From contig NC_010503.1 in the NCBI RefSeq assembly GCF_000019345.1, positions 420,001 through 452,000 of the forward strand: a stretch of 32,000 bases of DNA, read 5' to 3'. Each line of letters opens with the position of its first letter. Position 1 is the stretch's first letter. The notes beneath the pieces are model-generated. The model did not search any database and had not been told where the DNA came from. It saw only the letters and a program-made list of their open reading frames with translations. A program made the translations under genes and the position numbers. Shown here piece by piece: positions 7,352 to 32,000 of this stretch. This DNA comes from Ureaplasma parvum serovar 3 str. ATCC 27815. GTDB taxonomy: Bacteria; Bacillota_I; Bacilli_A; Mycoplasmatales; Mycoplasmoidaceae.

Positions 7352-8545
7352 TTATTTTCCAGTAGTTTCTTTACCTGCTGGTTGTTCTTTACCTGCTGGT
7401 TGTTCTTTACCTGCTGGTTGTTCTTTACCTGCTGGTTGTTCTTTACCTGCTGGTTGTTCTTTACCTGCTGGTTGTTCTTTACCTGCTGGTTGTTCTTTAC
7501 CTGCTGGTTGTTCTTTACCTGCTGGTTGTTCTTTACCTGCTGGTTGTTCTTTACCTGCTGGTTGTTCTTTACCTGCTGGTTGTTCTTTACCTGCTGGTTG
7601 TTCTTTACCTGCTGGTTGTTCTTTACCTGCTGGTTGTTCTTTACCTGCTGGTTGTTCTTTACCTGCTGGTTGTTCTTTACCTGCTGGTTGTTCTTTACCT
7701 GCTGGTTGTTCTTTACCTGCTGGTTGTTCTTTACCTGCTGGTTGTTCTTTACCTGCTGGTTGTTCTTTACCTGCTGGTTGTTCTTTACCTGCTGGTTGTT
7801 CTTTACCTGCTGGTTGTTCTTTACCTGCTGGTTGTTCTTTACCTGCTGGTTGTTCTTTACCTGCTGGTTGTTCTTTACCTGCTGGTTGTTCTTTACCTGC
7901 TGGTTGTTCTTTACCTGCTGGTTGTTCTTTACCTGCTGGTTGTTCTTTACCTGCTGGTTGTTCTTTACCTGCTGGTTGTTCTTTACCTGCTGGTTGTTCT
8001 TTACCTGCTGGTTGTTCTTTACCTGCTGGTTGTTCTTTACCTGCTGGTTGTTCTTTACCTGCTGGTTGTTCTTTACCTGCTGGTTGTTCTTTACCTGGTT
8101 GTGTAGTTTCAAAGTTCACTTTTTCTGTTTGATAATTCAAATTATCAGATATTAACAAACCTGAAGTCTTGATTAATCCACTTTTACTAATAATAGTTAA
8201 TTGTTCATTAGGTTTTGGTTCACGAGGTAATTTAACGTAAATTTTTTCACCAACTAAATGACCTTTTTCAAGTGTACTTTCTGTTTTGTTTTCAGCTGAT
8301 GTAAGTGCAGCATTAAATTCAATGTTACTTAATGATTTTTTATCATCATTACTTAGATCTTTAAAGTTTTCAATTTCGTAAACCGCATAAAAACTTTTAC
8401 CGTCTGTTGATTTAGCAAATTGGTTACTTAACTTAGATTTAACAGTTGAATTAGAACATGAAGCTGCTATAGCAACTATTCCAGCTCCAACTAAGGTAAC
8501 ACCTAATGTCATAGCTCAGAATTTTTTATTTTTTAATAATTTCAT
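7352..8545 (-). CDS. surface lipoprotein, currently assembled expression copy: signal peptide, constant N-terminal module, NLNYQTEKVNFE junction, then (KEQPAG)n repeat tail
   Basis: ATG at 8545 with AGGAG 8 nt upstream. MKLLKNKKFWAMTLGVTLVGAGIVAIAASC has a lipobox (IAAS-C). It joins ORF 7352..8512 in frame through one TGA. The C-terminal part is about 40 KEQPAG units ending GKETTGK, then TAA. Confidence 0.85.
7367..8097 (-). repeat. perfect 18-bp tandem repeat array, about 40.6 copies (unit ggtaaagaacaaccagca on the coding strand = GKEQPA)
   Basis: Sequence lines repeat exactly with the 180-nt period expected for an 18-bp unit on 60-nt lines. No variant unit seen by eye. Span 731 bp. Confidence 0.95.
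8108..8142 (-). repeat. site A: 35-bp in-frame junction element (encodes NLNYQTEKVNFE), inverted relative to site B
   Basis: The reverse complement of 8108-8142 is atttgaattatcaaacagaaaaagtgaactttgaa, identical to 8854-8888. It lies exactly between the constant N-terminal module and the repeat cassette. Confidence 0.85.
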
Positions 8546-23089: not shown

Positions 23090-23145
23090 TGATATATAAT
23101 ATAGTTGCCAAGTGTAAAAAAGTGGGGAAAAATGTATAAAAATGT
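23090..23145 (+). promoter_or_regulatory. mraZ promoter (-10 region) followed by four 10-bp-phased MraZ-box-like repeats
   Basis: TGATATATAAT at 23090-23100, then CAAGTGT (23109-15), AAAGTGG (23119-25), AAAATGT (23129-35) and AAAATGT (23139-45). These are 7-mers with 3-nt spacers. The last overlaps the mraZ ATG at 23142. Confidence 0.55.
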
Positions 23146-23579
23146 TTATTGGTACTTATAATCATTCAATTGATTCAAAGAATCGTATGTTAGTTCCATC
23201 AAAAGTTAAAGCAACATTAGGTGAAGCCATTTTTGTTTATTTATCACTTGGTTTTGATGGAAATATAGATATGAGATTAGAGAGTGAATTTAATCAATTC
23301 GTTAACAATATTAATAATTTATTAATTGGTTCAAAAGAAGCGCGAAATCTTACAAGATTAATATTAAGCCAAACTTATAAAATAGAAATCGATAGTGCGT
23401 CAAGAATTTTAATACCTCAAAACCTTATTGATAAAGCTAAAATTAAAAAAGATATTTATATTATTGGAACAAATGATCGATATGAAATTTGGGCTAAAGA
23501 AGTTTATGATGATTTTAGCTTAAATCAAGAAAGTACGCTAAGTGATTTAGCTGAAAAATTATTAATTAATGGAATTTAA
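23142..23579 (+). CDS. mraZ: transcriptional regulator MraZ
   Basis: 145 aa with the two SpoVT/AbrB-like halves carrying DxxxR motifs (DSKNRMLVPSK and DSASRILIPQ). First gene of the dcw cluster. Confidence 0.9.
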   Translation: MFIGTYNHSIDSKNRMLVPSKVKATLGEAIFVYLSLGFDGNIDMRLESEFNQFVNNINNLLIGSKEARNLTRLILSQTYKIEIDSASRILIPQNLIDKAKIKKDIYIIGTNDRYEIWAKEVYDDFSLNQESTLSDLAEKLLINGI

Positions 23580-24495
23580 TCAACACATTACCGTTTTATT
23601 AAACGAAACAATCGAATTATTAAATATTAAACCAGATGGCATTTATGTTGATTGTACATTTGGTCGTGGCGGACATTCACAACTCATCTTAAAAAAACTC
23701 TCAAAAAAAGGTAAATTAATTTGTTTAGATCAAGATCAAGAAGCAATTAATTTTGCAAATAATTTATTTAAAAATAATACAAATGTAATTGTTATTAAAA
23801 CAAACTTTAAAAATTTAAAATCAGCATTAAGTGCACATAAAATTTTTTATGTTGATGGCTTTATCTTTGATTTAGGTTTATCAAGTCCACAACTTGATGA
23901 TCCAAAAAGAGGTTTTAGTTATCATAAGAATGCTTGATTAGATATGCGAATGGATCAATCGCAAAACTTAAATGCTCACTATATTGTTAATAATTATTCT
24001 TTTGCAAAATTAGTAAGTATTTTTAAACGATATGGAGAAATAAAATATCCAAAAATTATTGCTGATGCAATTGTTAAAGAACGCAGTATTAAAGAGATTA
24101 ATACAACATTGGAATTAGTTGAAATCATTAAAAAATATTCTCCTAAAAAAAATTTATTTGAAAAAAAACATCCTGCACGTTTATTTTTTCAAGCAATTAG
24201 AATAGAAGTTAATGATGAATTAAACATTTTAGAAAAAGCATTTAATGATGCTATTTCAATGTTAAATCCCTTAGGTGTTGTGGCAATTATTAGCTTTCAT
24301 AGTCTTGAAGATAAAATTGTTAAAAAGGTCTTTAATAATTATGCAAAAATTAAATTACCTAAAGAAGTCCCAATAAATAATTATGTAAATAAATATAGTT
24401 TATTGAATCAAAAAATTATGCCAAGCACCCAGGAACTAAATGATAACAATCGTTCACGATCATCTATTTTAAGGGGATTAATTAGAAATTATTAA
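23569..24495 (+). CDS. rsmH: 16S rRNA (cytosine1402-N4)-methyltransferase RsmH/MraW (308 aa)
   Basis: YVDCTFGRGGHS SAM-binding motif and FDLGLSSPQLD. Fragments 23569 and 23944 are in the same frame, joined by TGA. Overlaps mraZ by 11 nt. Confidence 0.9.
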
Positions 24496-24513
24496 AAATG
24501 GAGGATTTTATTT

Positions 24514-25695
24514 ATGAACAAACCAATGTGTTTGCTTCGTTTAGATAATTATTATTTTACATTGTTGGTATTTATTTATAATGATGTAACTAAAGTTAAT
24601 GATTTAATTTTTATAAAATCTATTCCAAACAATAATCAAAATAATTATGAATCATCAAATTTTTTGCAAACAGATTTAAAAATCCAACTTAATACATTGA
24701 TTAACTGTTTTAAAAAAGAATTGCACATTAATTTTATTGATGAAATTATTGTTAGTTATGGTTTTAGTAGCTTTCAAACTACACATACTACTTTTTATAA
24801 CTATAATGAATTTATGAAATTAAGATCAAATTTTAATAATGAACACAGTGAATTATTAAGTTCAGATCAAAAAAGTTATATAGCAGTTGATTTTGGAATA
24901 AGCCACTATTCTAAAGAAAATAGTTATAAGTTGATTTCATATTATATTTTGAAATATGATTATCAATTAATAATTGATTTGTGCCAATCATTTAATTTAA
25001 AAATTAAGCAATTTATAGTTTCACAAGCTCATTTAAACGGTTTAAAATTTGATAATGAAGATAATAAAACTTCATTATTATTAGAATTAGAAAATTTTAA
25101 AATAAATTTTAGAACTTATAATGAATATAATTTAATTAGTAATGTTATTAGTGAGACAAAAAACCACTTTTGCCTGGCTGATATCATTACTCAAACAGCA
25201 CAATCATTAAATATTAATCCTAAAAAGATTGAGAGCTACTTTAATGATATTAATTATAATAATAAAAAAGTTATTGAAATTAATATTGATCCTAAAGAGT
25301 TGTTTACTTATAGTTTTATTTGTGGTGCGGATATTGAAAATACTTTTTTAAAAATTTTTAAAGAACATTTTGAAAAAAGTATTTTATCTCAATTTGATCA
25401 TCCATTACTAGATTTTAATCCAAAGAATTTAGCCTTTCTTTTTATTAACACTCCTTTCAATAATTTAAATAAGATATTTTATTATTTTTTTAGTTCATAT
25501 TTTAAAGAAGTTAAAATTGAAGTTTTTCAAAATAAATTTTTTATTTATTCAAATTGTTATGAATATAGTAATAGTCAAGCCCTAGCTAAGCAAGATTTTT
25601 ACAATGTACATAACATGAAAAATTTTGATAGCTTTAGCAATGAAAATATCCTAACAAAGATGCATGATCAAACAATAAACATAAAAAATTTTTAA
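24514..25695 (+). CDS. hypothetical protein occupying the FtsA/MG223-like third position of the mollicute dcw cluster (393 aa)
   Basis: Uninterrupted ORF with GGAGG 8 nt upstream of the ATG. No motif I can assign confidently; the call is positional only. Confidence 0.5.
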   Translation: MNKPMCLLRLDNYYFTLLVFIYNDVTKVNDLIFIKSIPNNNQNNYESSNFLQTDLKIQLNTLINCFKKELHINFIDEIIVSYGFSSFQTTHTTFYNYNEFMKLRSNFNNEHSELLSSDQKSYIAVDFGISHYSKENSYKLISYYILKYDYQLIIDLCQSFNLKIKQFIVSQAHLNGLKFDNEDNKTSLLLELENFKINFRTYNEYNLISNVISETKNHFCLADIITQTAQSLNINPKKIESYFNDINYNNKKVIEINIDPKELFTYSFICGADIENTFLKIFKEHFEKSILSQFDHPLLDFNPKNLAFLFINTPFNNLNKIFYYFFSSYFKEVKIEVFQNKFFIYSNCYEYSNSQALAKQDFYNVHNMKNFDSFSNENILTKMHDQTINIKNF

Positions 25696-25722
25696 TAGAA
25701 ATATAAAAAGTATACAATTATT

Positions 25723-25755
25723 AAAAAAACTCATTTTTATGAGTTTTTTGTTTTT
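25723..25755 (+). terminator. rho-independent terminator closing the dcw operon
   Basis: aaaaaaactcat tttt atgagtttttt: perfect stem extended by A/T pairing, followed by a T-run, 28 nt after the stop at 25695. Confidence 0.7.
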
Positions 25756-25790
25756 ATAATATATGAAAGATAGGATGTGATTTTGTTTAT

Positions 25791-26666
25791 ATGGCGTTAA
25801 GTAAACACAGTATTGGTTTGATTAAAAATTTAAAGAATAAAGGATTGACTATTAAAAATAAAGAAAAATTCATTAGTTTCTTGTTTAATTATGGAGTCAT
25901 AAGAGTTATAGATGGTTATTCATTTTTTTTAAAAAAAGATAATCAATATGTAAAAGGCTTAAAAAGTAAGGATTTAATTAATTTTGTTTTATTAGATCGT
26001 AAAATTGCTAATTTAATGGGTGATTGTATTATGCTATTTGAACAACAATTAAATGCTATTGTTGTTCAAAATTTTTTAAAGATCAATAATTTAAATTCAA
26101 AATATGTTATAGATATGCGAACAGATCCTTTTATAAAATTTGAATCACCAAAACATTATGAAATATTATCAGAAAATATTTACACATATGCTAATTCTTC
26201 TAATTTGTTAAGTCAATTTAATACTAACGCACAAGAAATTCCTTTAATTAATTTAGCATTATCATGAACATTAAATACCACTATTGGCTTTTATCGTGCA
26301 GTTGATAATAATGTTCAAATTAGTGTTTTAGAGTATTTTCAATTAAATCATATTACACCATTAGAATTTATTGATATTTTACATATCATAAAACATTTTC
26401 GTAATAGTATTTCTCATAACGATATGGTAATTACTAATAGTTTCAATGATAACGTAGGTGCATTTGCTAAATCATTAAAATTAAAAAGTATTAAAAAAGT
26501 AGTGGGATTTTTAGATGTTGCGGCTTTTTTAACGGCGTTTACAAACGATAAATTTCATGTTTTAAATGGTAATTTACACATCAAAATTTTACAAGCAATT
26601 AAAAAAGCAAAATTCAAAGGCGTTGTTTTAGAACATATTAATAATTTATTAGGAGTTGAAGATTAA
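25791..26666 (+). CDS. Abi_2 family (AbiD/AbiF-like) abortive-infection protein (291 aa)
   Basis: Fragments 25791 and 26424 are in the same frame, joined by one TGA. Abi_2-like landmarks: LKNKGLTI...FNYGVIRVIDGYSFF, LLDRKIANLM...FEQQLNAIV, LSWTLNTTIGFY and the C-terminal FRNSISHND (RN-x-x-x-H). TATAAT at 25755-25760 upstream. Confidence 0.7.
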
Positions 26667-26670
26667 AATT

Positions 26671-29600
26671 ATGCAAGATCAAGGAGTAAATAACAAGGCA
26701 ATTAAGCAAAAAGTCTTAAATTTACTATCAACTGATACGCGTGATAGTTGTATAAGAACACGCTTAACAAAATACCATTTAGATATTAGTCACACTTTTA
26801 ATAAATATGAACTTCAAGATTTTATTGAAGGTAAAATTAACATTCTTAAAATTAGAAATTTTATTAACATCAATACGTTTGAAAATGATGTTAAAAATAT
26901 AAATTCAATGGATGAATTGATTGATTATTTACAGGATTTCAATTTAAAACTAAAAGATCTTTTATCGACACGTAAAATTAATGAATGGAGCCAAGACTTT
27001 GTATTTTATAAAAATGAACGAATTGCTGATATGATTAAAGCGATTGAAAGTCAACCAAAAAAATTTGAATATTTAAGTCGTGAAGCACGCAATATTTATG
27101 CGCAAACAGGTGTTTGACCTTTATATATAGCTAAAAATTTTTTGATTGGTACAACACCTAAAGCTTCAAATATTAACGCGCCCTTAATTTTTGTTGATGT
27201 TGAGATTAAAAAATATAATGGTGAAATTTTTTTAAAACGAAAAAATACTAATTTTATTGTTAACGAAAAAATACTATCTTTTTTAAAAAATGATTATAAA
27301 AATAATATCGTTTCTTTAAATGAAATTAAAAACTTTAGTTATTTAGAAATTCAAACTCTAATTAAAAAAATAATACTAAAAGATCATTTAGAATCGATTA
27401 TTAATAATAATGAATTTCTAAACTTAAAACAAAATGAAATTAATGAGCAATTTAATAACTTTTTTTTATATGATGCATATGTTTTAGGAATTTTTGAGCC
27501 CCATGGAGGAGCGATTAAAAATGACTTAGAAGTGATTATTAGTAATAATATTGATCCTTTTGACGAAGAAATAAATAATGTTAATCAACAAATTTATTAT
27601 AAAAACTATCATTTTTTAGCAGAAGAAAATAAGCTTCCTTTAATCCAAATTAATCGTCCTTTAAATATTTTTCAAAAGTATGCTATTCATTCAGGATTAG
27701 TTAAAAATACTTTAATATATGGACCGCCTGGAACGGGAAAATCAGAGGTGATTGCAAGTATTATTGCAAACGTAATTAATGATTTAAAATCGATTTTAAT
27801 TATTTCGGAGAAAAAAGCTGCTTTAGATGTATTACATGAAAGATTAGCTAAAATTAATTTTTTCACACTTTTTATTTATGATACAAATAATGATGATCAA
27901 TTTTATAATAACATTTTTAATTTAATTGAAAAAATAGGAGGATTGCGTTTTATTGAGAATCAAGATTTAAACCAATTCAATGATTTTAAATATAAAAATA
28001 ATATTATTTCAAACATTTATTATAAAAAGATTCATGAATTAAAAAAAGAAATTATTAATATTACATCTTTAATTAAAAATTTACATAATGAAAAAGATAA
28101 TAATGATAATAATTTTGCTAATTATTTGTATTGATTATCACGCTTTAATGAAGTAGAAATTAGATTTATTAACGATCCATTATTGATCAATGAAATTAAT
28201 AATTTAATTGAGAATTATTCTTATAATTTTGATGAAATTATTACACACGTTAAAGCTAGTTATGATTTTTTTAAAAAATATAATTATGAATTTTCTAAAA
28301 ATAATTTTTTAAAATTTAAAGAAGAAAGCGAACAATTAAATAAATTACAAATTGATTTTAATTTAATTACAAAATCTTTATATCAATCACAAACTTTTCT
28401 ACCACGTATTAAGTTGTTAGAAAGCTTTTTAGTTAAAAATAATATGACTTTAACAAGTCTTATATATGATGATGTTAACTTGTTAAGTAATACATATGTT
28501 GAAGCTAATGAGTTTTATACAAACTTTAATCATCTTTTAAAAGATGATTTTAAAAAATTTATTGAAGATAATATAAAAAGTCATTCATTGTTTTTTAGTC
28601 ATTTAAATACTTTAAAAAATAATGAATGAACTTATGCTTTTGAGCAATATTTATTAATAAATAATCCATTTGCTAAAAAAGGTTTATTTAAAAAAATTAA
28701 AGGTGATGAAAAAAAATTATGAAAACAACTTGATCTACTTAAAATATATATTAATAATCCTTTTTTATCAAAATTTAGCTTTGATTTTTTAGAAGATTTA
28801 ATCAAACAACCAATAGAGATTTTCAATGTTGAAAATCTTGTTTATTTAAATAACAAACATTTATTAAATAAAGCATACGTTAAAGATTTATATGAGAATG
28901 CTTTTGATAAGAATTTATCATATGAACTAATTTATGGCCTTAAAGATTTAAAATTAAATAGTGAGCAATATGATATTATTAAAAATTTAATTAAATATCA
29001 AAACGAAGTTTTAGTTAATTATCAATTCATTAAAAATACTGATTTTTTTAATTTGTGTAAAAAATTAAGAGATGCAAATATTCAATTTTCTAAAAATGCT
29101 GATGAAATTATTTACAATAACTATTTAGATTATTTGCAAATTAAATTAGTTACTGCTCCTAAACAAATCCAAACAAAAATTAAAGAAATTGCGCAAATTT
29201 GTCGTTTAGCAAAAAAACCTAATATTGTGAAATTTATTTTAAAATATTATGAAATTTTACGTTTTCTTTTCCCTATTTGAATTAGTAAACCAGAACTTGT
29301 TAGTGAGATGTTACCATTAATAAGTAAGAGTTTTGATTATGGAATTTTTGATGAGGCTTCTCAGATGTTTTTAGAACGTTCTTATCCTTCAATCTATCGT
29401 TGTAATATTAATATTGTTGCAGGCGATGATAAACAATTATGCCCTACTAATTTTTTTATTAATCGTCAAGAAAATGAAAACGATGAGTTTGAATTAGCAG
29501 ATGTAGATGTTGCAGAAAGTTTATTAGATCGTGCTAAAACTGCTCTATGGTCAGAATATTTATTAAAAAACCACTATCGTTCTAATCGAGAAGATTTAAT

Positions 29601-30525
29601 TAGTTTTAGTAACGATAATATTTATAATGGCGATTTACATTTTGCATCTAAAAATGGGTTATTTGATCCAGGAATGGAAATTATAGATGTTGAAGGTGTA
29701 TTTGAAAATGAAAATGTTATTGAAGCACAAAAAATTATGGAGGTTTTAAAAGAACGAGCAGCCAATTATCAAAAAATTATTGTTATAACTTTTAATATCA
29801 AACAAAGTGAATTAATTGAAAATTTAATACTACAAACTTTTAGTTTTAATGATGTTGTTTATCAACGTTTTGAGAATGATGAAATTATTGTTACTAATTT
29901 AGAAAACGTTCAAGGTAATGAAGCTGATTTAGTAATTTTATCGGTTACTTATGCCAAAAATAAAGAAGGAATTTTACGCAATAATTATGGCCCATTAATG
30001 AAAAAAGGTGGTGCTAATCGGTTAAATGTAGCGATTACAAGAGCAGCAGATAAAATGATTGTTGTTAAATCAATTAAAGCTGTGGATATGATGGTTAATA
30101 TTAATAATGATAATATTAGGACTTTTAAAAATTTTATTGGTTATTGTGATGAAATTGTTCATTTGACTAATCAAAATAAATTTAATGATTGTAGTCATTT
30201 TGATGAAGAATTTTTAACAAGTTTAGAAAAAACCATATTGAAAATTTTAAAAGATTATAAAAAAACAAATCAACAAATTTTATATAAACTAAAAATTGGT
30301 AATTTTAAAATCACTTTTGCTTTATATAATGAAGAAAAACAAAAAATCGATTTACTTATTTTTATAGAAGAGTTTAATGAATGAAAATCATATAATCTTT
30401 TAGAAATTTATGATCAATTTAACTTCTTAATGGATCGTGGTTATAAAACAATCGTTATTAATGATTATGAAATTTGTTTAAACTATAATCAAGTTAAAAA
30501 TAATATTATTAAATTAATTGATTAA
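26671..30525 (+). CDS. DUF4011-type SF1 (Upf1/DNA2-like, AAA_11/AAA_12) helicase with C-terminal Vsr/DUF559-like endonuclease-fold domain (1284 aa; alternative TTG start at 26656)
   Basis: Five track fragments (26656, 27142, 28183, 29053, 29308) and the untracked stretch 28627-29052 form one frame broken only by TGA. DUF4011-like GVWPLYIAKNFLIG...NAPLIFVDVEI. Walker A GPPGTGKS (27721-27744). DEASQ (29350-29364). GDDKQLCPT. HYRS. VQGNEADLVILS. NRLNVAITRA. The tail KITFALYNEEKQKIDLLIFIEEFNEW...DQFNFLMDRGYKTIVIND resembles the DUF559 pattern. Confidence 0.8.
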
Positions 30526-30585
30526 TATATATTATTAAATTGTTAAAATTTATGAAATATTTATTATCTTTTCTGGAGGTTTAAT

Positions 30586-31401
30586 TTGAATTTAAAGTCA
30601 TTTGAATTTTTAAAAGGTGATGCAATTGTTGATAACCAAATAAAAAAAGCTATTAATACTAGTTTGATTAAAGCATCATTTTCATGTGCAATTATGTGTA
30701 TATTAGTTCTTATTTTTGGTTTTTTAATGCGAAAATATTTATTTTATTTTTCAGATGCATCTAGTTTAATTATTAGCTCTCGTTTGATTTTTCAAATAAT
30801 TACAATCATTGTTGCTACTTTATCAATTGTCTATTTTATTGTTCATTTAATCATTTACTTTAGACAAAGAAATAATTTTTTAGCTCCTAAATTTGCATGA
30901 TCAATCATATTGTATCTATTGGATGGTATTACAATGTGTTTTATGATTAGTTATGTAGCGGCGATTGTAGGATTAGATTTGACGTTAATAGCCATTGGAA
31001 TTAGTTTATCAATCATTGTCGCAATGGGAATACTAGGTTTTATTATGAATCATAAAATTGCTTTTAAATTAGGCATTGCTAATATCGTTTTATTTACTAT
31101 TGCTACAATTGGTTCAATTATTTTATTGATTGTATTTTTTACAACGAGATATAACCATACTGGTTTTAACAAAGGTGTTATTATTGCTGACATTGTATTA
31201 AGTATTATTTGATTGCTCGCTTTAAGTATTGGTTTTGCTTCGACGATTTACATTATTAAAGTAATGGCCGAACATCATAATTTAGATAATAAAAAAATAA
31301 TGCGTGATTTTACAACTTGAAATAGTTATTTACTATTTGCTTCATTCAATCGTATTTTATTATATGTAATTCGTTTGTTTTTATTGTTTAAAAGAGTATA
31401 A
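30586..31401 (+). CDS. multi-pass membrane protein, possibly BAX-inhibitor-1/YccA family (271 aa)
   Basis: TTG start with GGAGG 6 nt upstream. Fragments 30586 and 30910 are in the same frame through TGA. About 7 hydrophobic spans. The C-terminal NSYLLFASFNRILLYVIRLFLLF loosely resembles the BI-1 C-terminal motif. Confidence 0.5.
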
Positions 31402-31405
31402 ATAT

Positions 31406-31432
31406 AACAGGTTTGTTTAAACCTGTTTTTTT
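31406..31432 (+). terminator. rho-independent terminator
   Basis: aacaggttt gttt aaacctgtt: perfect 9-bp stem followed by T7, 5 nt after the stop. Confidence 0.75.
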
Positions 31433-31507
31433 ATGACAATACATTTATTTTTTAGCACTCATTATTTTAAAGTGCTAAAATTATAATAGTAAAGTAGGTG
31501 ATTATTT

Positions 31508-32000
31508 ATGGAATTTAAACAAAAAAACTCAAACAATCCATTAGAGGAATTTGGACGTAATTTAAATAAGGAAATTTTAGATAATAAAATTGACCCCATT
31601 ATCGGTCGAGATGAAGAAATTAGAAGAACCATTGAAATTCTAAGTCGTAAAACTAAGAATAATCCTGTCTTAATTGGTGAACCTGGTGTTGGTAAAACAG
31701 CAATTGTTGAGGGGCTTGCATACCGAATTGTTCATAAAGATGTTCCTTCAAACTTATTAGATAAAACAATTATTGAATTATCATTATCATCTTTAATTGC
31801 AGGCGCTAGTTATCAAGGCCAGTTTGAGGAACGAATTAATAGTATTTTAAAAGAAGTCAAAAAAGCAGATGGTAATATCATTTTGTTTATTGATGAAATA
31901 CATCAAATTGTTGGTATGGGTAGAAATCAAGGTTCAAATATGGATGTTGCTAATATTTTAAAACCAATGATGGCAAGAGGAGAAATCAAATTAATTGGCG
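31508..32000 (+). CDS. clpB: ATP-dependent chaperone ClpB, 5' part (continues beyond the window)
   Basis: [74 protein letters not shown] (first AAA+ Walker A). AGGTG 7 nt upstream. Short N-terminus, as in mollicute ClpB. Confidence 0.9.

What the first reader, a model, noticed from the sequence alone, without database searches (positions are those of the whole stretch)
25696..30525. Abi_2 (AbiD/F-like) gene coupled to a giant DUF4011 helicase-nuclease: candidate undescribed two-gene defence module
After a strong terminator (25723-25755) and a TATAAT (25755-25760), two genes form a tight unit. The first is a 291-aa Abi_2-like protein (25791-26666). The second is a 1284-aa SF1 helicase whose ATG lies 4 nt after the Abi stop, or overlaps it by 11 nt if the TTG at 26656 is used. 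Abi_2 proteins are known as stand-alone abortive-infection genes in Lactococcus (AbiD, AbiD1, AbiF). Upf1/DNA2-like helicase-nuclease fusions are recurrent effectors or sensors in defence systems; Nhi-like and Mokosh-like helicases are precedents by analogy only. I know of no described system pairing these two families. The pair sits between conserved housekeeping blocks (dcw cluster and clpB), looks even more AT-rich by eye than its neighbours, and is not flanked by obvious mobility genes.
Basis: partly seen in the sequence, partly recalled or inferred. Interest (0 to 1): 0.8.

Follow-up and report, generated by a model that had tools for sequence, protein, structure and literature searches.

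The report
AbiF-like RNase plus nuclease-dead helicase operon
In Ureaplasma parvum a toxin-type RNase gene (AbiF family) sits in a tight, genus-conserved operon with a giant DUF4011 helicase whose nuclease domain has decayed; it is probably a new two-part variant of known anti-phage gene families, but this is untested and it could still be housekeeping.

Summary
A 291-aa Abi_2 protein (25791-26666) is followed 4 nt later by a 1284-aa DUF4011/SF1 helicase (26671-30525). The Abi protein has an invariant RNxxxH HEPN motif, and its model matches only the solved PbAbiF structure. The helicase motifs are intact. The "helicase-nuclease" label fails: the C-terminal Vsr/MTES_1575 domain is an unrecognisable relic that has lost its conserved acidic residues. 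Abi sits directly upstream of the helicase in 9 Ureaplasma lineages. Gaps are -7 to 33 nt in all but one, and the left-hand flanks differ. A third gene, a membrane protein at 30586-31401, travels with the pair in U. parvum, U. urealyticum and U. diversum. Against a simple defence-island reading: the pairing occurs only in Ureaplasma, each partner also occurs alone in close relatives, and the genes show strong purifying selection (dN/dS 0.08-0.15) with host-like GC3. They have no viral relatives, and no Ureaplasma phage has been isolated. No abiF antitoxin RNA is present. Best reading (about 0.45): a protein-partnered AbiF-type toxin module in which the helicase senses or regulates. This is a new variant of known kinds and of moderate interest.

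The parts
25724..25755 (+). Intrinsic-terminator-like hairpin (11-bp stem, T tail) that closes the upstream dcw-type genes and marks the left edge of the unit
   Evidence: Fold -10.3 kcal/mol, z = -4.2, 0 of 200 shuffles as stable. The consensus scan missed it because it has fewer than 3 G-C pairs.
25755..25760 (+). TATAAT hexamer, candidate -10 box for the operon
   Evidence: Read directly from the sequence. Promoter-like sites are not enriched over shuffles in this AT-rich DNA, so this is only suggestive.
25791..26666 (+). abi gene: 291-aa AbiF/AbiD-family (Pfam Abi_2) HEPN protein, the predicted RNase toxin or effector
   Evidence: Pfam Abi_2 1.3e-21, PADLOC AbiD 9e-13. AF2 model pLDDT 84; its only significant PDB match is PbAbiF 8vz6 (TM 0.70). 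dN/dS 0.077.
26400..26417 (+). HEPN catalytic motif R204-N-S-I-S-H209 (followed by N210-D211)
   Evidence: R204, N205, H209, N210 and D211 are invariant in all 13 aligned helicase-linked Abi proteins down to 29% identity.
26671..30525 (+). 1284-aa DUF4011 / Upf1-like SF1 helicase; its start lies 4 nt after the abi stop
   Evidence: DUF4011, AAA_11 and AAA_12. PDC-S37 2.4e-89, Hhe 1.4e-41, ProA 1.8e-91, all far below the equivalog cutoffs. dN/dS 0.135.
26719..27285 (+). DUF4011 N-terminal domain (aa 17-205), fold of unknown function
   Evidence: Pfam 2.2e-16. AF2 model of aa 1-335 has pLDDT 80 but no PDB structural match (best E 0.35).
27721..27744 (+). Walker A motif GPPGTGKS (aa 351-358)
   Evidence: Sequence and coordinates. 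Lies within the AAA_11 match.
29347..30045 (+). Remaining helicase motifs: DEAS (aa 894-897), GDDKQL (918-923), VQGNE (1080-1084), ITRA (1122-1125); all intact
   Evidence: Conserved across the family alignment.
30226..30522 (+). Relic of the MTES_1575 / Vsr-like endonuclease domain (aa about 1186-1284), predicted catalytically dead
   Evidence: No PF18741 or DUF559 hit at E <= 10, while paralogues score 44.6-61.5 bits. Positions conserved in PF18741-positive clades are replaced here: K1212F, D1215T, W1235F, R1249Q, Q1250F, E1254M, W1268I.
30586..31401 (+). Third gene: 271-aa polytopic membrane protein (UU390), GGAGG 6 nt before its TTG start. It travels with the pair in U. parvum, U. urealyticum and U. 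diversum.
   Evidence: Homologous to the U. diversum 265-aa protein, which also directly follows the helicase in a different context (E 1.6e-19). Weak full-length match to the NCBIfam MAG0110 membrane family and weak Bax1-I match. dN/dS 0.152.
31406..31427 (.). Bidirectional terminator-like hairpin that closes the three-gene unit before clpB
   Evidence: 9-bp stem with a T tail on both strands. No terminator-like site lies between the helicase and the membrane gene.

Best explanation
This is a Ureaplasma-specific operon. It couples an AbiF-type HEPN ribonuclease (the toxin or effector) to a paralogue of the Mollicutes-wide DUF4011 SF1 helicase. That paralogue kept its ATPase motor and DUF4011 domain but let its Vsr-like DNA nuclease decay. 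In the human and bovine ureaplasmas a polytopic membrane protein is added.

Proposed mechanism (inferred, not shown). Canonical AbiF is held inactive by a cis-encoded ncRNA, which is absent here. Instead, the HEPN dimer would be restrained or licensed by the helicase. The helicase would load on or translocate along foreign or aberrant nucleic acid, such as a phage, ICE or transforming DNA, or its transcripts. It would then release or activate the RNase, which cuts RNA non-specifically and arrests the cell or the invader. That is an abortive-infection or conflict module.

Shown: gene structure, family membership, fold, motif integrity or loss, conserved adjacency, purifying selection, absence of the abiF RNA motif. 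Inferred: physical or functional coupling, direction of regulation, trigger, defence role.
For: Family and fold. Abi_2 scores 78 bits; the RNxxxH motif is invariant; the only PDB match is PbAbiF. AbiF is an ssRNA-specific HEPN toxin neutralised by its ncRNA (PMC12373285, PMC12737573). No abiF-motif RNA is found at E <= 10 around the U. parvum gene, nor at the gathering threshold in 10 related loci.

Helicase. The motifs are intact. The best hits are defence families: PDC-S37, ProA, Hhe, MkoA. The nuclease domain has decayed, and Hhe defence requires that nuclease (E1731A is dead). So this helicase cannot act as a stand-alone Hhe-type nuclease.

Linkage. Abi lies directly upstream on the same strand in 9 Ureaplasma lineages at 27-45% Abi identity. 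Gaps are 4, 5, 8, 8, -7, 12, 14, 29 and 33 nt, plus one of 181 nt. The pair survives changes of left flank: rsmH/orf393, tsaD, or an IS transposase. Pairwise identities of Abi and helicase run in parallel. In U. diversum the cassette sits between IS genes next to a GmrSD type IV restriction gene. All three genes are under purifying selection. U. parvum also keeps a second DUF4011 paralogue with an intact MTES_1575 domain beside RNase J, which fits duplication followed by specialisation.
Against: There is no experimental evidence, and no Ureaplasma phage has ever been isolated (PMC13375369).

The coupling is not obligate. The helicase stands alone in ES3154-GEN at the same locus with no Abi remnant. 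It also stands alone in the P0021 and P0027 lineages. In Ureaplasma sp. Hg2 the two genes lie on different contigs. Close Abi relatives stand alone in Malacoplasma and other Mollicutes.

The pairing is confined to one genus, so adjacency could simply be inherited. Shared right-flank genes (aldehyde dehydrogenase, clpB) in L043 and L046 suggest that some of the 'different contexts' are local rearrangements.

The genes behave like core genes: host-like GC3, dS like their neighbours, dN/dS 0.08-0.15, and presence in tens of U. parvum and U. urealyticum assemblies. They have no relatives on viral contigs. Decay of the nuclease domain also occurs in unlinked clade members (P0005, P0021, P0027), so it does not track Abi linkage cleanly.
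Confidence: 0.45

Rival explanations
1. Two independent single-gene systems are adjacent by descent. An AbiF-like toxin and an Hhe/PDC-S37-like helicase sit side by side (a mini defence island, or simply neighbours) without working together. The arrangement would be inherited from the Ureaplasma ancestor.
For: Both families are described as single-gene systems: AbiD/F, Hhe and PDC-S37. Each partner occurs alone in close relatives. The pairing is limited to one genus, and partly shared flanks suggest inheritance rather than repeated assembly.
Against: Spacing of 33 nt or less (once overlapping) is kept in 9 of 10 loci, although the proteins have diverged to 27-45% identity. The helicase lacks the nuclease that Hhe needs for defence. 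The AbiF-like toxin lacks the ncRNA antitoxin that stand-alone AbiF systems use. The pair stays together when the left flank changes.
Confidence: 0.25
2. It is a housekeeping RNA-metabolism module. An Upf1-like helicase and a HEPN endoribonuclease would act together on cellular RNA (surveillance, decay or processing) and not on invaders.
For: The genes recur in tens of U. parvum and U. urealyticum assemblies and show housekeeping-like purifying selection and composition. DUF4011 helicases are near-universal in Mycoplasmatales-type Mollicutes, and paralogues sit next to RNase J in at least two clades. The helicase core resembles Upf1, IGHMBP2 and DNA2. The locus lies between the dcw genes and clpB. 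No Ureaplasma phage is known.
Against: Abi is missing or unlinked in several Ureaplasma species that keep the helicase, which is unlike an essential partnership. Characterised Abi_2 members are toxins or defence genes. A DUF4011 gene is disrupted by an ICE in a viable M. hominis strain (PMC12228374). The U. diversum copy lies among IS elements and a GmrSD gene.
Confidence: 0.2
3. It is a pure toxin-antitoxin (addiction) cassette. The helicase, or the membrane protein, would be a protein antitoxin that stabilises the locus, with no sensing of invaders.
For: AbiF-type proteins are type III-like toxins. No RNA antitoxin is detectable here. The toxin-first, tightly coupled gene order is compatible with some TA classes.
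Against: A 1284-aa ATPase with intact helicase motifs under purifying selection is far more than an antitoxin needs. The helicase persists without Abi in several lineages. Abi persists without the helicase in others, so some other restraint on the toxin must exist.
Confidence: 0.1

Closest known systems
AbiF / AbiD (Pfam Abi_2) HEPN toxins, including C. difficile AbiFCd-RCd22 and PbAbiF-AbiFr (PDB 8vz6)
   Same: The Abi_2 domain scores well above cutoff. The RNxxxH HEPN motif is invariant. Size is about 290 aa. The predicted fold matches PbAbiF (TM 0.70).
   Different: No abiF-motif ncRNA is detectable upstream. The gene is the first in an operon with a giant helicase, and is neither stand-alone nor prophage-borne. 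It is chromosomal, recurs in tens of assemblies and is vertically inherited. Only 9 cluster representatives in 1.84 billion match the subfamily at E <= 1e-30.
Hhe (Gao et al. 2020; NCBIfam NF042953 'DUF4011 domain-containing anti-phage protein Hhe')
   Same: It has an N-terminal DUF4011 plus an SF1 AAA_11/AAA_12 helicase. There is a significant HMM match (PADLOC 1.4e-41; NCBIfam 198 bits).
   Different: The score is a tenth of the equivalog cutoff (198 against 2000). The protein is about 500 aa shorter than the profile. The Vsr/MTES_1575 nuclease that Hhe needs (E1731A abolishes defence) is a decayed relic. No DUF3320 is detected. It is operonic with a HEPN gene and is not a single-gene system.
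PADLOC candidate PDC-S37 and NCBIfam anti-phage protein ProA (NF058533)
   Same: These are the best-scoring named relatives of the helicase (299 and 307.5 bits). The matches are centred on the second RecA domain (aa about 770-1190).
   Different: Coverage is partial. The ProA score is 307 against a cutoff of 1500. I found no paper describing either family in the searchable library, so their partners and mechanism could not be compared.
MTES_1575-type giant fusion proteins (Anantharaman et al. 2013, PMC3710099): HEPN (Swt1/Abi2 clade) + transglutaminase + SF-I helicase + Vsr-like REase + wHTH
   Same: They combine a HEPN of the broad Abi2/Swt1 group with an SF-I helicase carrying an MTES_1575-type REase domain. 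This is the same set of modules, so the functional pairing has a precedent.
   Different: Here the HEPN is a separate gene of the AbiF type. None of the 150 closest Abi relatives exceeds 513 aa, so no fusions occur nearby. There is no transglutaminase or wHTH, and the REase domain is dead. I could not verify that the helicase of MTES_1575 is DUF4011-type.
RNase J-linked DUF4011 helicase paralogues of Mollicutes (for example the U. parvum 1367-aa protein P0018; the M. genitalium MG140 type, the latter from memory)
   Same: They belong to the same protein family (34% identity over the full length) in the same genome, with DUF4011 and helicase motifs.
   Different: The paralogue keeps a recognisable MTES_1575 domain (44.6 bits), sits beside RNase J and has no Abi partner.

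Membership tests
Abi_2 / AbiD-AbiF (PF07751) | Abi_2 domain above Pfam's gathering score | tested here: met
   78.2 bits against a cutoff of 25.6, covering profile positions 2-183 of 184. PADLOC AbiD 9.4e-13.
Abi_2 / AbiD-AbiF (PF07751) | HEPN Rx4-6H catalytic motif | tested here: met
   R204-N-S-I-S-H209, invariant in 13 helicase-linked homologues.
Abi_2 / AbiD-AbiF (PF07751) | AbiF fold | tested here: met
   AF2 model pLDDT 83.9. Foldseek finds only 8vz6_A PbAbiF: E 9.5e-7, TM 0.70, probability 1.00.
AbiF as a type III-like toxin-antitoxin system | Cis-encoded ncRNA antitoxin carrying abiF motifs (an Rfam family) | tested here: not met
   No abiF-motif hit in window 24500-31600 at E <= 10, nor at the gathering score in 10 related loci. 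Only 28 nt separate the upstream stop codon from the terminator hairpin. A divergent, unmodelled RNA cannot be excluded.
AbiF as a type III-like toxin-antitoxin system | RNase activity, toxicity, phage exclusion | not testable with these tools
   Needs expression and challenge experiments.
Hhe (Gao 2020; NF042953) | DUF4011 plus SF1 helicase core | tested here: met
   DUF4011 60.7 bits, AAA_11 48.8, AAA_12 54.3. Walker A, DEAS, GDDKQL, VQGNE and ITRA are present.
Hhe (Gao 2020; NF042953) | Functional Vsr/MTES_1575 endonuclease domain (its catalytic Glu is required for defence) | tested here: not met
   No PF18741 or DUF559 hit at E <= 10 on the isolated C-terminus. The conserved D and E positions are replaced by T and M.
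Hhe (Gao 2020; NF042953) | NCBIfam equivalog score | tested here: not met
   198 bits against a cutoff of 2000.
ProA (NF058533) | NCBIfam equivalog score | tested here: not met
   307.5 bits against a cutoff of 1500. The best stretch covers profile positions 1209-1614 of 1903.
PDC-S37 (PADLOC candidate) | Match to the PDC-S37 HMM over most of its length | tested here: inconclusive
   E 2.4e-89 (298.7 bits), but in 3 stretches. The best covers profile positions 815-1252 of 1550. PADLOC's coverage rules and the family definition were not available.
Mokosh (MkoA helicase + PLD nuclease) | Strong MkoA match and a PLD-nuclease partner or domain | tested here: not met
   MkoA scores only 66 bits, over the C-terminal helicase lobe. 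No PLD domain occurs in the three operon genes.
MTES_1575-type HEPN-helicase-REase fusions (PMC3710099) | HEPN fused in one polypeptide with the SF-I helicase, Vsr REase, transglutaminase and wHTH | tested here: not met
   The genes are separate. No transglutaminase or DUF3320 is detected. The top 150 Abi relatives are 61-513 aa.

The most novel reading that the evidence does not exclude
A nuclease-dead DUF4011 helicase has taken over the role of the ncRNA antitoxin as the regulator and sensor of an AbiF-type HEPN toxin. That would make it a protein-gated AbiF system, with an accessory membrane protein in some species. It would be retained as a core gene set in a minimal-genome human pathogen with no known phages, where it may police ICEs, transforming DNA or aberrant transcripts.
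Probability: 0.2. Interest if true: 0.7.

Novelty: new variant of a known kind. Interest (0 to 1): 0.45.

Why it matters
AbiF-type HEPN toxins have recently been proposed as evolutionary ancestors of Cas13 and are thought to be controlled by a cis ncRNA. A lineage in which that RNA is missing and a large ATP-driven helicase is the conserved partner would be a different way of gating a HEPN RNase. It would also give a function to the widespread but uncharacterised DUF4011 helicases of Mollicutes.

It matters for Ureaplasma biology too. Either there is unseen pressure from mobile elements, or these 'defence-type' proteins have been recruited for RNA housekeeping. Either outcome would be informative, and it is testable with a handful of point mutants.

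Tried and rejected
- **Table-11 ORF calls.** They fragment both genes, so I switched to table 4.
- **Recent horizontal acquisition.** Rejected: GC3 and dS are like the neighbours and there are no relatives on viral contigs.
- **abiF-motif RNA antitoxin.** Not found in the window or in related loci, whether linked or stand-alone, so this test could not separate the two kinds of Abi.
- **Intragenic terminator-like hairpin in abi (26037-26070) as a regulatory RNA.** It is strong only in U. parvum and is not conserved; rejected.
- **'Split version of a fused protein' among close relatives.** Exhaustive HMMER found no long fusions in the top 150 hits. Only the distant literature precedent remains.
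- **Clean correlation between Abi linkage and nuclease decay.** Not found. Decay is clade-wide and includes unlinked members.
- **Abi remnant beside the lone helicases of ES3154-GEN and P0021.** None found.
- **Literature on ProA, PDC-S37, MG140 and Ureaplasma Abi.** Nothing usable. The first literature query was swamped by eukaryotic ABI2 papers.
- **The membrane protein as a known defence effector.** No PADLOC match; only weak similarity to MAG0110 and Bax1-I.

Full report
**1. Observation**

The window has 24.9% GC and uses TGA as Trp. The table-11 ORF tool splits both genes at TGA.
- a 291-aa ORF at 25791-26666;
- a 1284-aa ORF at 26671-30525, or 1289 aa from the TTG at 26656.

The stop-to-ATG gap is 4 nt. 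In U. urealyticum the first available start in this frame is the ATG, which favours ATG 26671 here. Exact-sequence look-up identifies the organism as Ureaplasma parvum. The three proteins are AAF30798, AAF30799 and AAF30800 (UU390), and they recur in tens of U. parvum and U. urealyticum assemblies.

The upstream hairpin is real: an 11-bp stem at 25724-25749, -10.3 kcal/mol, z = -4.2. TATAAT follows at 25755-25760. A bidirectional terminator-like hairpin lies at 31406-31427, after the next gene. No such site lies between the helicase and that gene. The transcription unit is therefore probably three genes long.

**2. What the proteins are**

*Gene 1* is a bona fide Abi_2 protein.
- It scores 78.2 bits against a Pfam cutoff of 25.6, and PADLOC AbiD gives 9e-13.
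- R204-N-x3-H209-N-D is invariant in 13 homologues down to 29% identity.
- An AlphaFold model (pLDDT 84, pTM 0.81) has exactly one significant PDB match: PbAbiF bound to its ncRNA (8vz6, TM 0.70).
- Published work shows AbiF to be a HEPN dimer with non-specific ssRNA nuclease activity, neutralised by a cis ncRNA that carries abiF motifs (PMC12373285, PMC12737573).
- No such RNA is detectable here at E <= 10, nor at the gathering threshold in ten related loci.

*Gene 2* carries DUF4011 (aa 17-205), AAA_11 and AAA_12.
- Walker A, DEAS, GDDKQL, VQGNE and ITRA are all intact.
- Its best named relatives are PADLOC PDC-S37 (299 bits), NCBIfam ProA (307 bits, cutoff 1500) and Hhe (198 bits, cutoff 2000). 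It is a relative of these families, not a member.
- PDB sequence matches are limited to the helicase cores of Upf1, IGHMBP2 and DNA2.
- A good model of the DUF4011 region (pLDDT 80) has no structural match in the PDB.

**3. The 'nuclease' is a relic**

The last ~100 residues align with the MTES_1575/Vsr-like domain of paralogues. Pfam scores on the isolated C-termini fall in steps:

| Protein | PF18741 score |
|---|---|
| M. penetrans | 61.5 bits |
| U. parvum paralogue (P0018) | 44.6 bits |
| Ca. U. intestinipullorum | 28.5 bits (below the 38.2-bit cutoff) |
| U. ceti | 26.2 bits (below cutoff) |
| Window protein, U. diversum, ES3154-GEN | no hit |

Of the positions conserved at 80% or more in the PF18741-positive clades, the window protein has replaced K1212, D1215, W1235, R1249, Q1250, E1254 and W1268. 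Hhe defence requires its Vsr active site, since E1731A abolishes it. So this helicase very probably cannot act as an Hhe-type nuclease. That last step is an inference.

**4. Is the pairing real?**

Gene neighbourhoods were read for 17 helicase lineages.

*Linked.* Abi_2 lies directly upstream, on the same strand, in 9 Ureaplasma lineages:
- U. parvum;
- U. urealyticum;
- U. diversum (two strains);
- U. ceti;
- Ca. U. intestinipullorum;
- three uncultured Ureaplasma (L012, L015, L019);
- one Logan assembly (L043).

The gaps are 4, 5, 8, 8, -7, 12, 14, 29 and 33 nt, with one outlier of 181 nt in U. ceti. The left flank differs between lineages: rsmH/orf393, tsaD, or a DDE transposase. In U. diversum a GmrSD gene lies nearby. 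Abi and helicase identities run in parallel across species.

*Third gene.* A 271-aa membrane protein follows the helicase in U. parvum and U. urealyticum. Its homologue (E 1.6e-19) does the same in U. diversum despite the different context. It is a weak, full-length match to the MAG0110 and Bax1-I membrane families and matches no known defence component.

**5. Limits of the linkage**

The helicase stands alone in several lineages:
- Ureaplasma sp. ES3154-GEN, at the same rsmH locus with no Abi remnant;
- the P0021 and P0027 lineages;
- Malacoplasma;
- the RNase J-linked paralogue that U. parvum also carries.

In Ureaplasma sp. Hg2 the two genes lie on different contigs. Abi relatives at 30-35% identity stand alone next to tsaD in other Mollicutes. 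Shared right-flank genes (aldehyde dehydrogenase, clpB) in L043 and L046 suggest that some context differences are local rearrangements of one ancestral locus.

The Abi subfamily is tiny. Of 1.84 billion representatives, 491 match at E <= 1e-3 and 9 at E <= 1e-30. None of the top 150 is longer than 513 aa, so there are no fusions among close relatives.

**6. Mode of evolution**

Between U. parvum and U. urealyticum, dN/dS is 0.077 for Abi, 0.135 for the helicase and 0.152 for the membrane gene. Neighbouring genes range from 0.03 to 0.19, with similar dS. GC3 equals that of the neighbours. Neither protein has relatives on viral contigs. These are maintained, vertically inherited genes and not a recent mobile insertion. 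No Ureaplasma phage has been isolated (PMC13375369).

**7. Interpretation**

The best-supported reading (about 0.45) is a Ureaplasma-specific, protein-partnered AbiF-type module. A duplicated DUF4011 helicase lost its own nuclease and became operonically coupled to a HEPN RNase that lacks the usual RNA antitoxin. The helicase would then be the sensor or regulator and the RNase the effector.

Three rivals remain:
- Two independent neighbours inherited by descent (0.25).
- A housekeeping RNA-surveillance pair (0.20). This is supported by the core-gene behaviour and by RNase J-linked paralogues. Against it are the patchy presence of Abi and an ICE-disrupted DUF4011 gene in viable M. hominis.
- A pure addiction cassette (0.10).

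**8. Comparison with what is known, and novelty**

I found no paper describing an Abi_2 + DUF4011 gene pair. The module combination does have a precedent as a fusion. Anantharaman et al. 2013 describe giant proteins that join an Abi2/Swt1-clade HEPN to an SF-I helicase, the MTES_1575 Vsr-like REase and wHTH domains. Both components belong to known defence families. The new elements are:
- the split-gene arrangement;
- the dead nuclease;
- the missing RNA antitoxin;
- the core-gene status in a minimal pathogen.

I rate it a new variant of a known kind, with interest 0.45.

Noticed in passing
window 7352-8545 (- strand); repeat 7367-8097: A lipoprotein-like gene holds a perfect 18-nt tandem repeat of 40.6 copies (100% matches), encoding PAGKEQ units. 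From memory this looks like the Ureaplasma multiple-banded antigen, a phase- and size-variable surface protein.
   Followed up: partly
window 26037-26070 (+), inside abi: A 13-bp terminator-like hairpin with a T run lies inside the Abi coding region (-14.4 kcal/mol). It is weak in U. urealyticum (-6.0) and absent in other species, so it is probably incidental.
   Followed up: yes
window 30586-31401 (+): A 271-aa polytopic membrane protein (UU390) is co-conserved with the Abi-helicase pair in U. diversum despite a different genomic context. It gives a weak full-length match to the MAG0110 membrane family and to Bax1-I. Its role is unknown.
   Followed up: partly
L007 6001-10104 (U. parvum, other locus): U. 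parvum carries a second DUF4011 helicase paralogue (1367 aa, 34% identity) with an intact MTES_1575 nuclease domain, directly upstream of RNase J. Another clade member (L045) also abuts RNase J. The helicase-RNase J adjacency recurs and is unexplained.
   Followed up: partly
window 23142-25695: The dcw-type cluster here is mraZ, rsmH and an uncharacterised 393-aa ORF with no Pfam, NCBIfam or PADLOC match. The Abi-helicase unit then begins where other Mollicutes carry ftsZ (gene order from memory). In Ureaplasma sp. ES3154-GEN (L004) the helicase follows rsmH directly.
   Followed up: no
L003 3268-13987 (U. diversum CP009770): The cassette is bracketed by a DDE_Tnp_1 transposase and an HTH_21 (IS3-type) fragment, with DUF5378 and a GmrSD type IV restriction gene alongside. 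This is an island-like, IS-rich context, unlike that of U. parvum.
   Followed up: partly
L011, L014, L020 (Mollicutes MAGs): Stand-alone Abi_2 genes sit divergently next to tsaD (tsaD | abi | arcA in L014 and L020). In U. ceti, Ca. U. intestinipullorum and L043 the Abi-helicase pair occupies the same spot. This suggests an ancestral Abi locus at tsaD, with the helicase gained or lost beside it.
   Followed up: partly
L005 6001-10263, L006 6001-10128: The helicases of the U. ceti / U. intestinipullorum group carry an extra N-terminal extension of about 90-135 aa that is absent from the U. parvum protein. U. ceti also has an unusual 181-nt spacer between abi and the helicase.
   Followed up: no
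window 26671-27675 (helicase aa 1-335): The DUF4011 region models confidently (pLDDT 80) as a mixed alpha/beta domain with invariant G160, P171, N198 (plus nearly invariant E199-K200) and P277-x-G279. It has no detectable structural relative in the PDB.
   Followed up: partly
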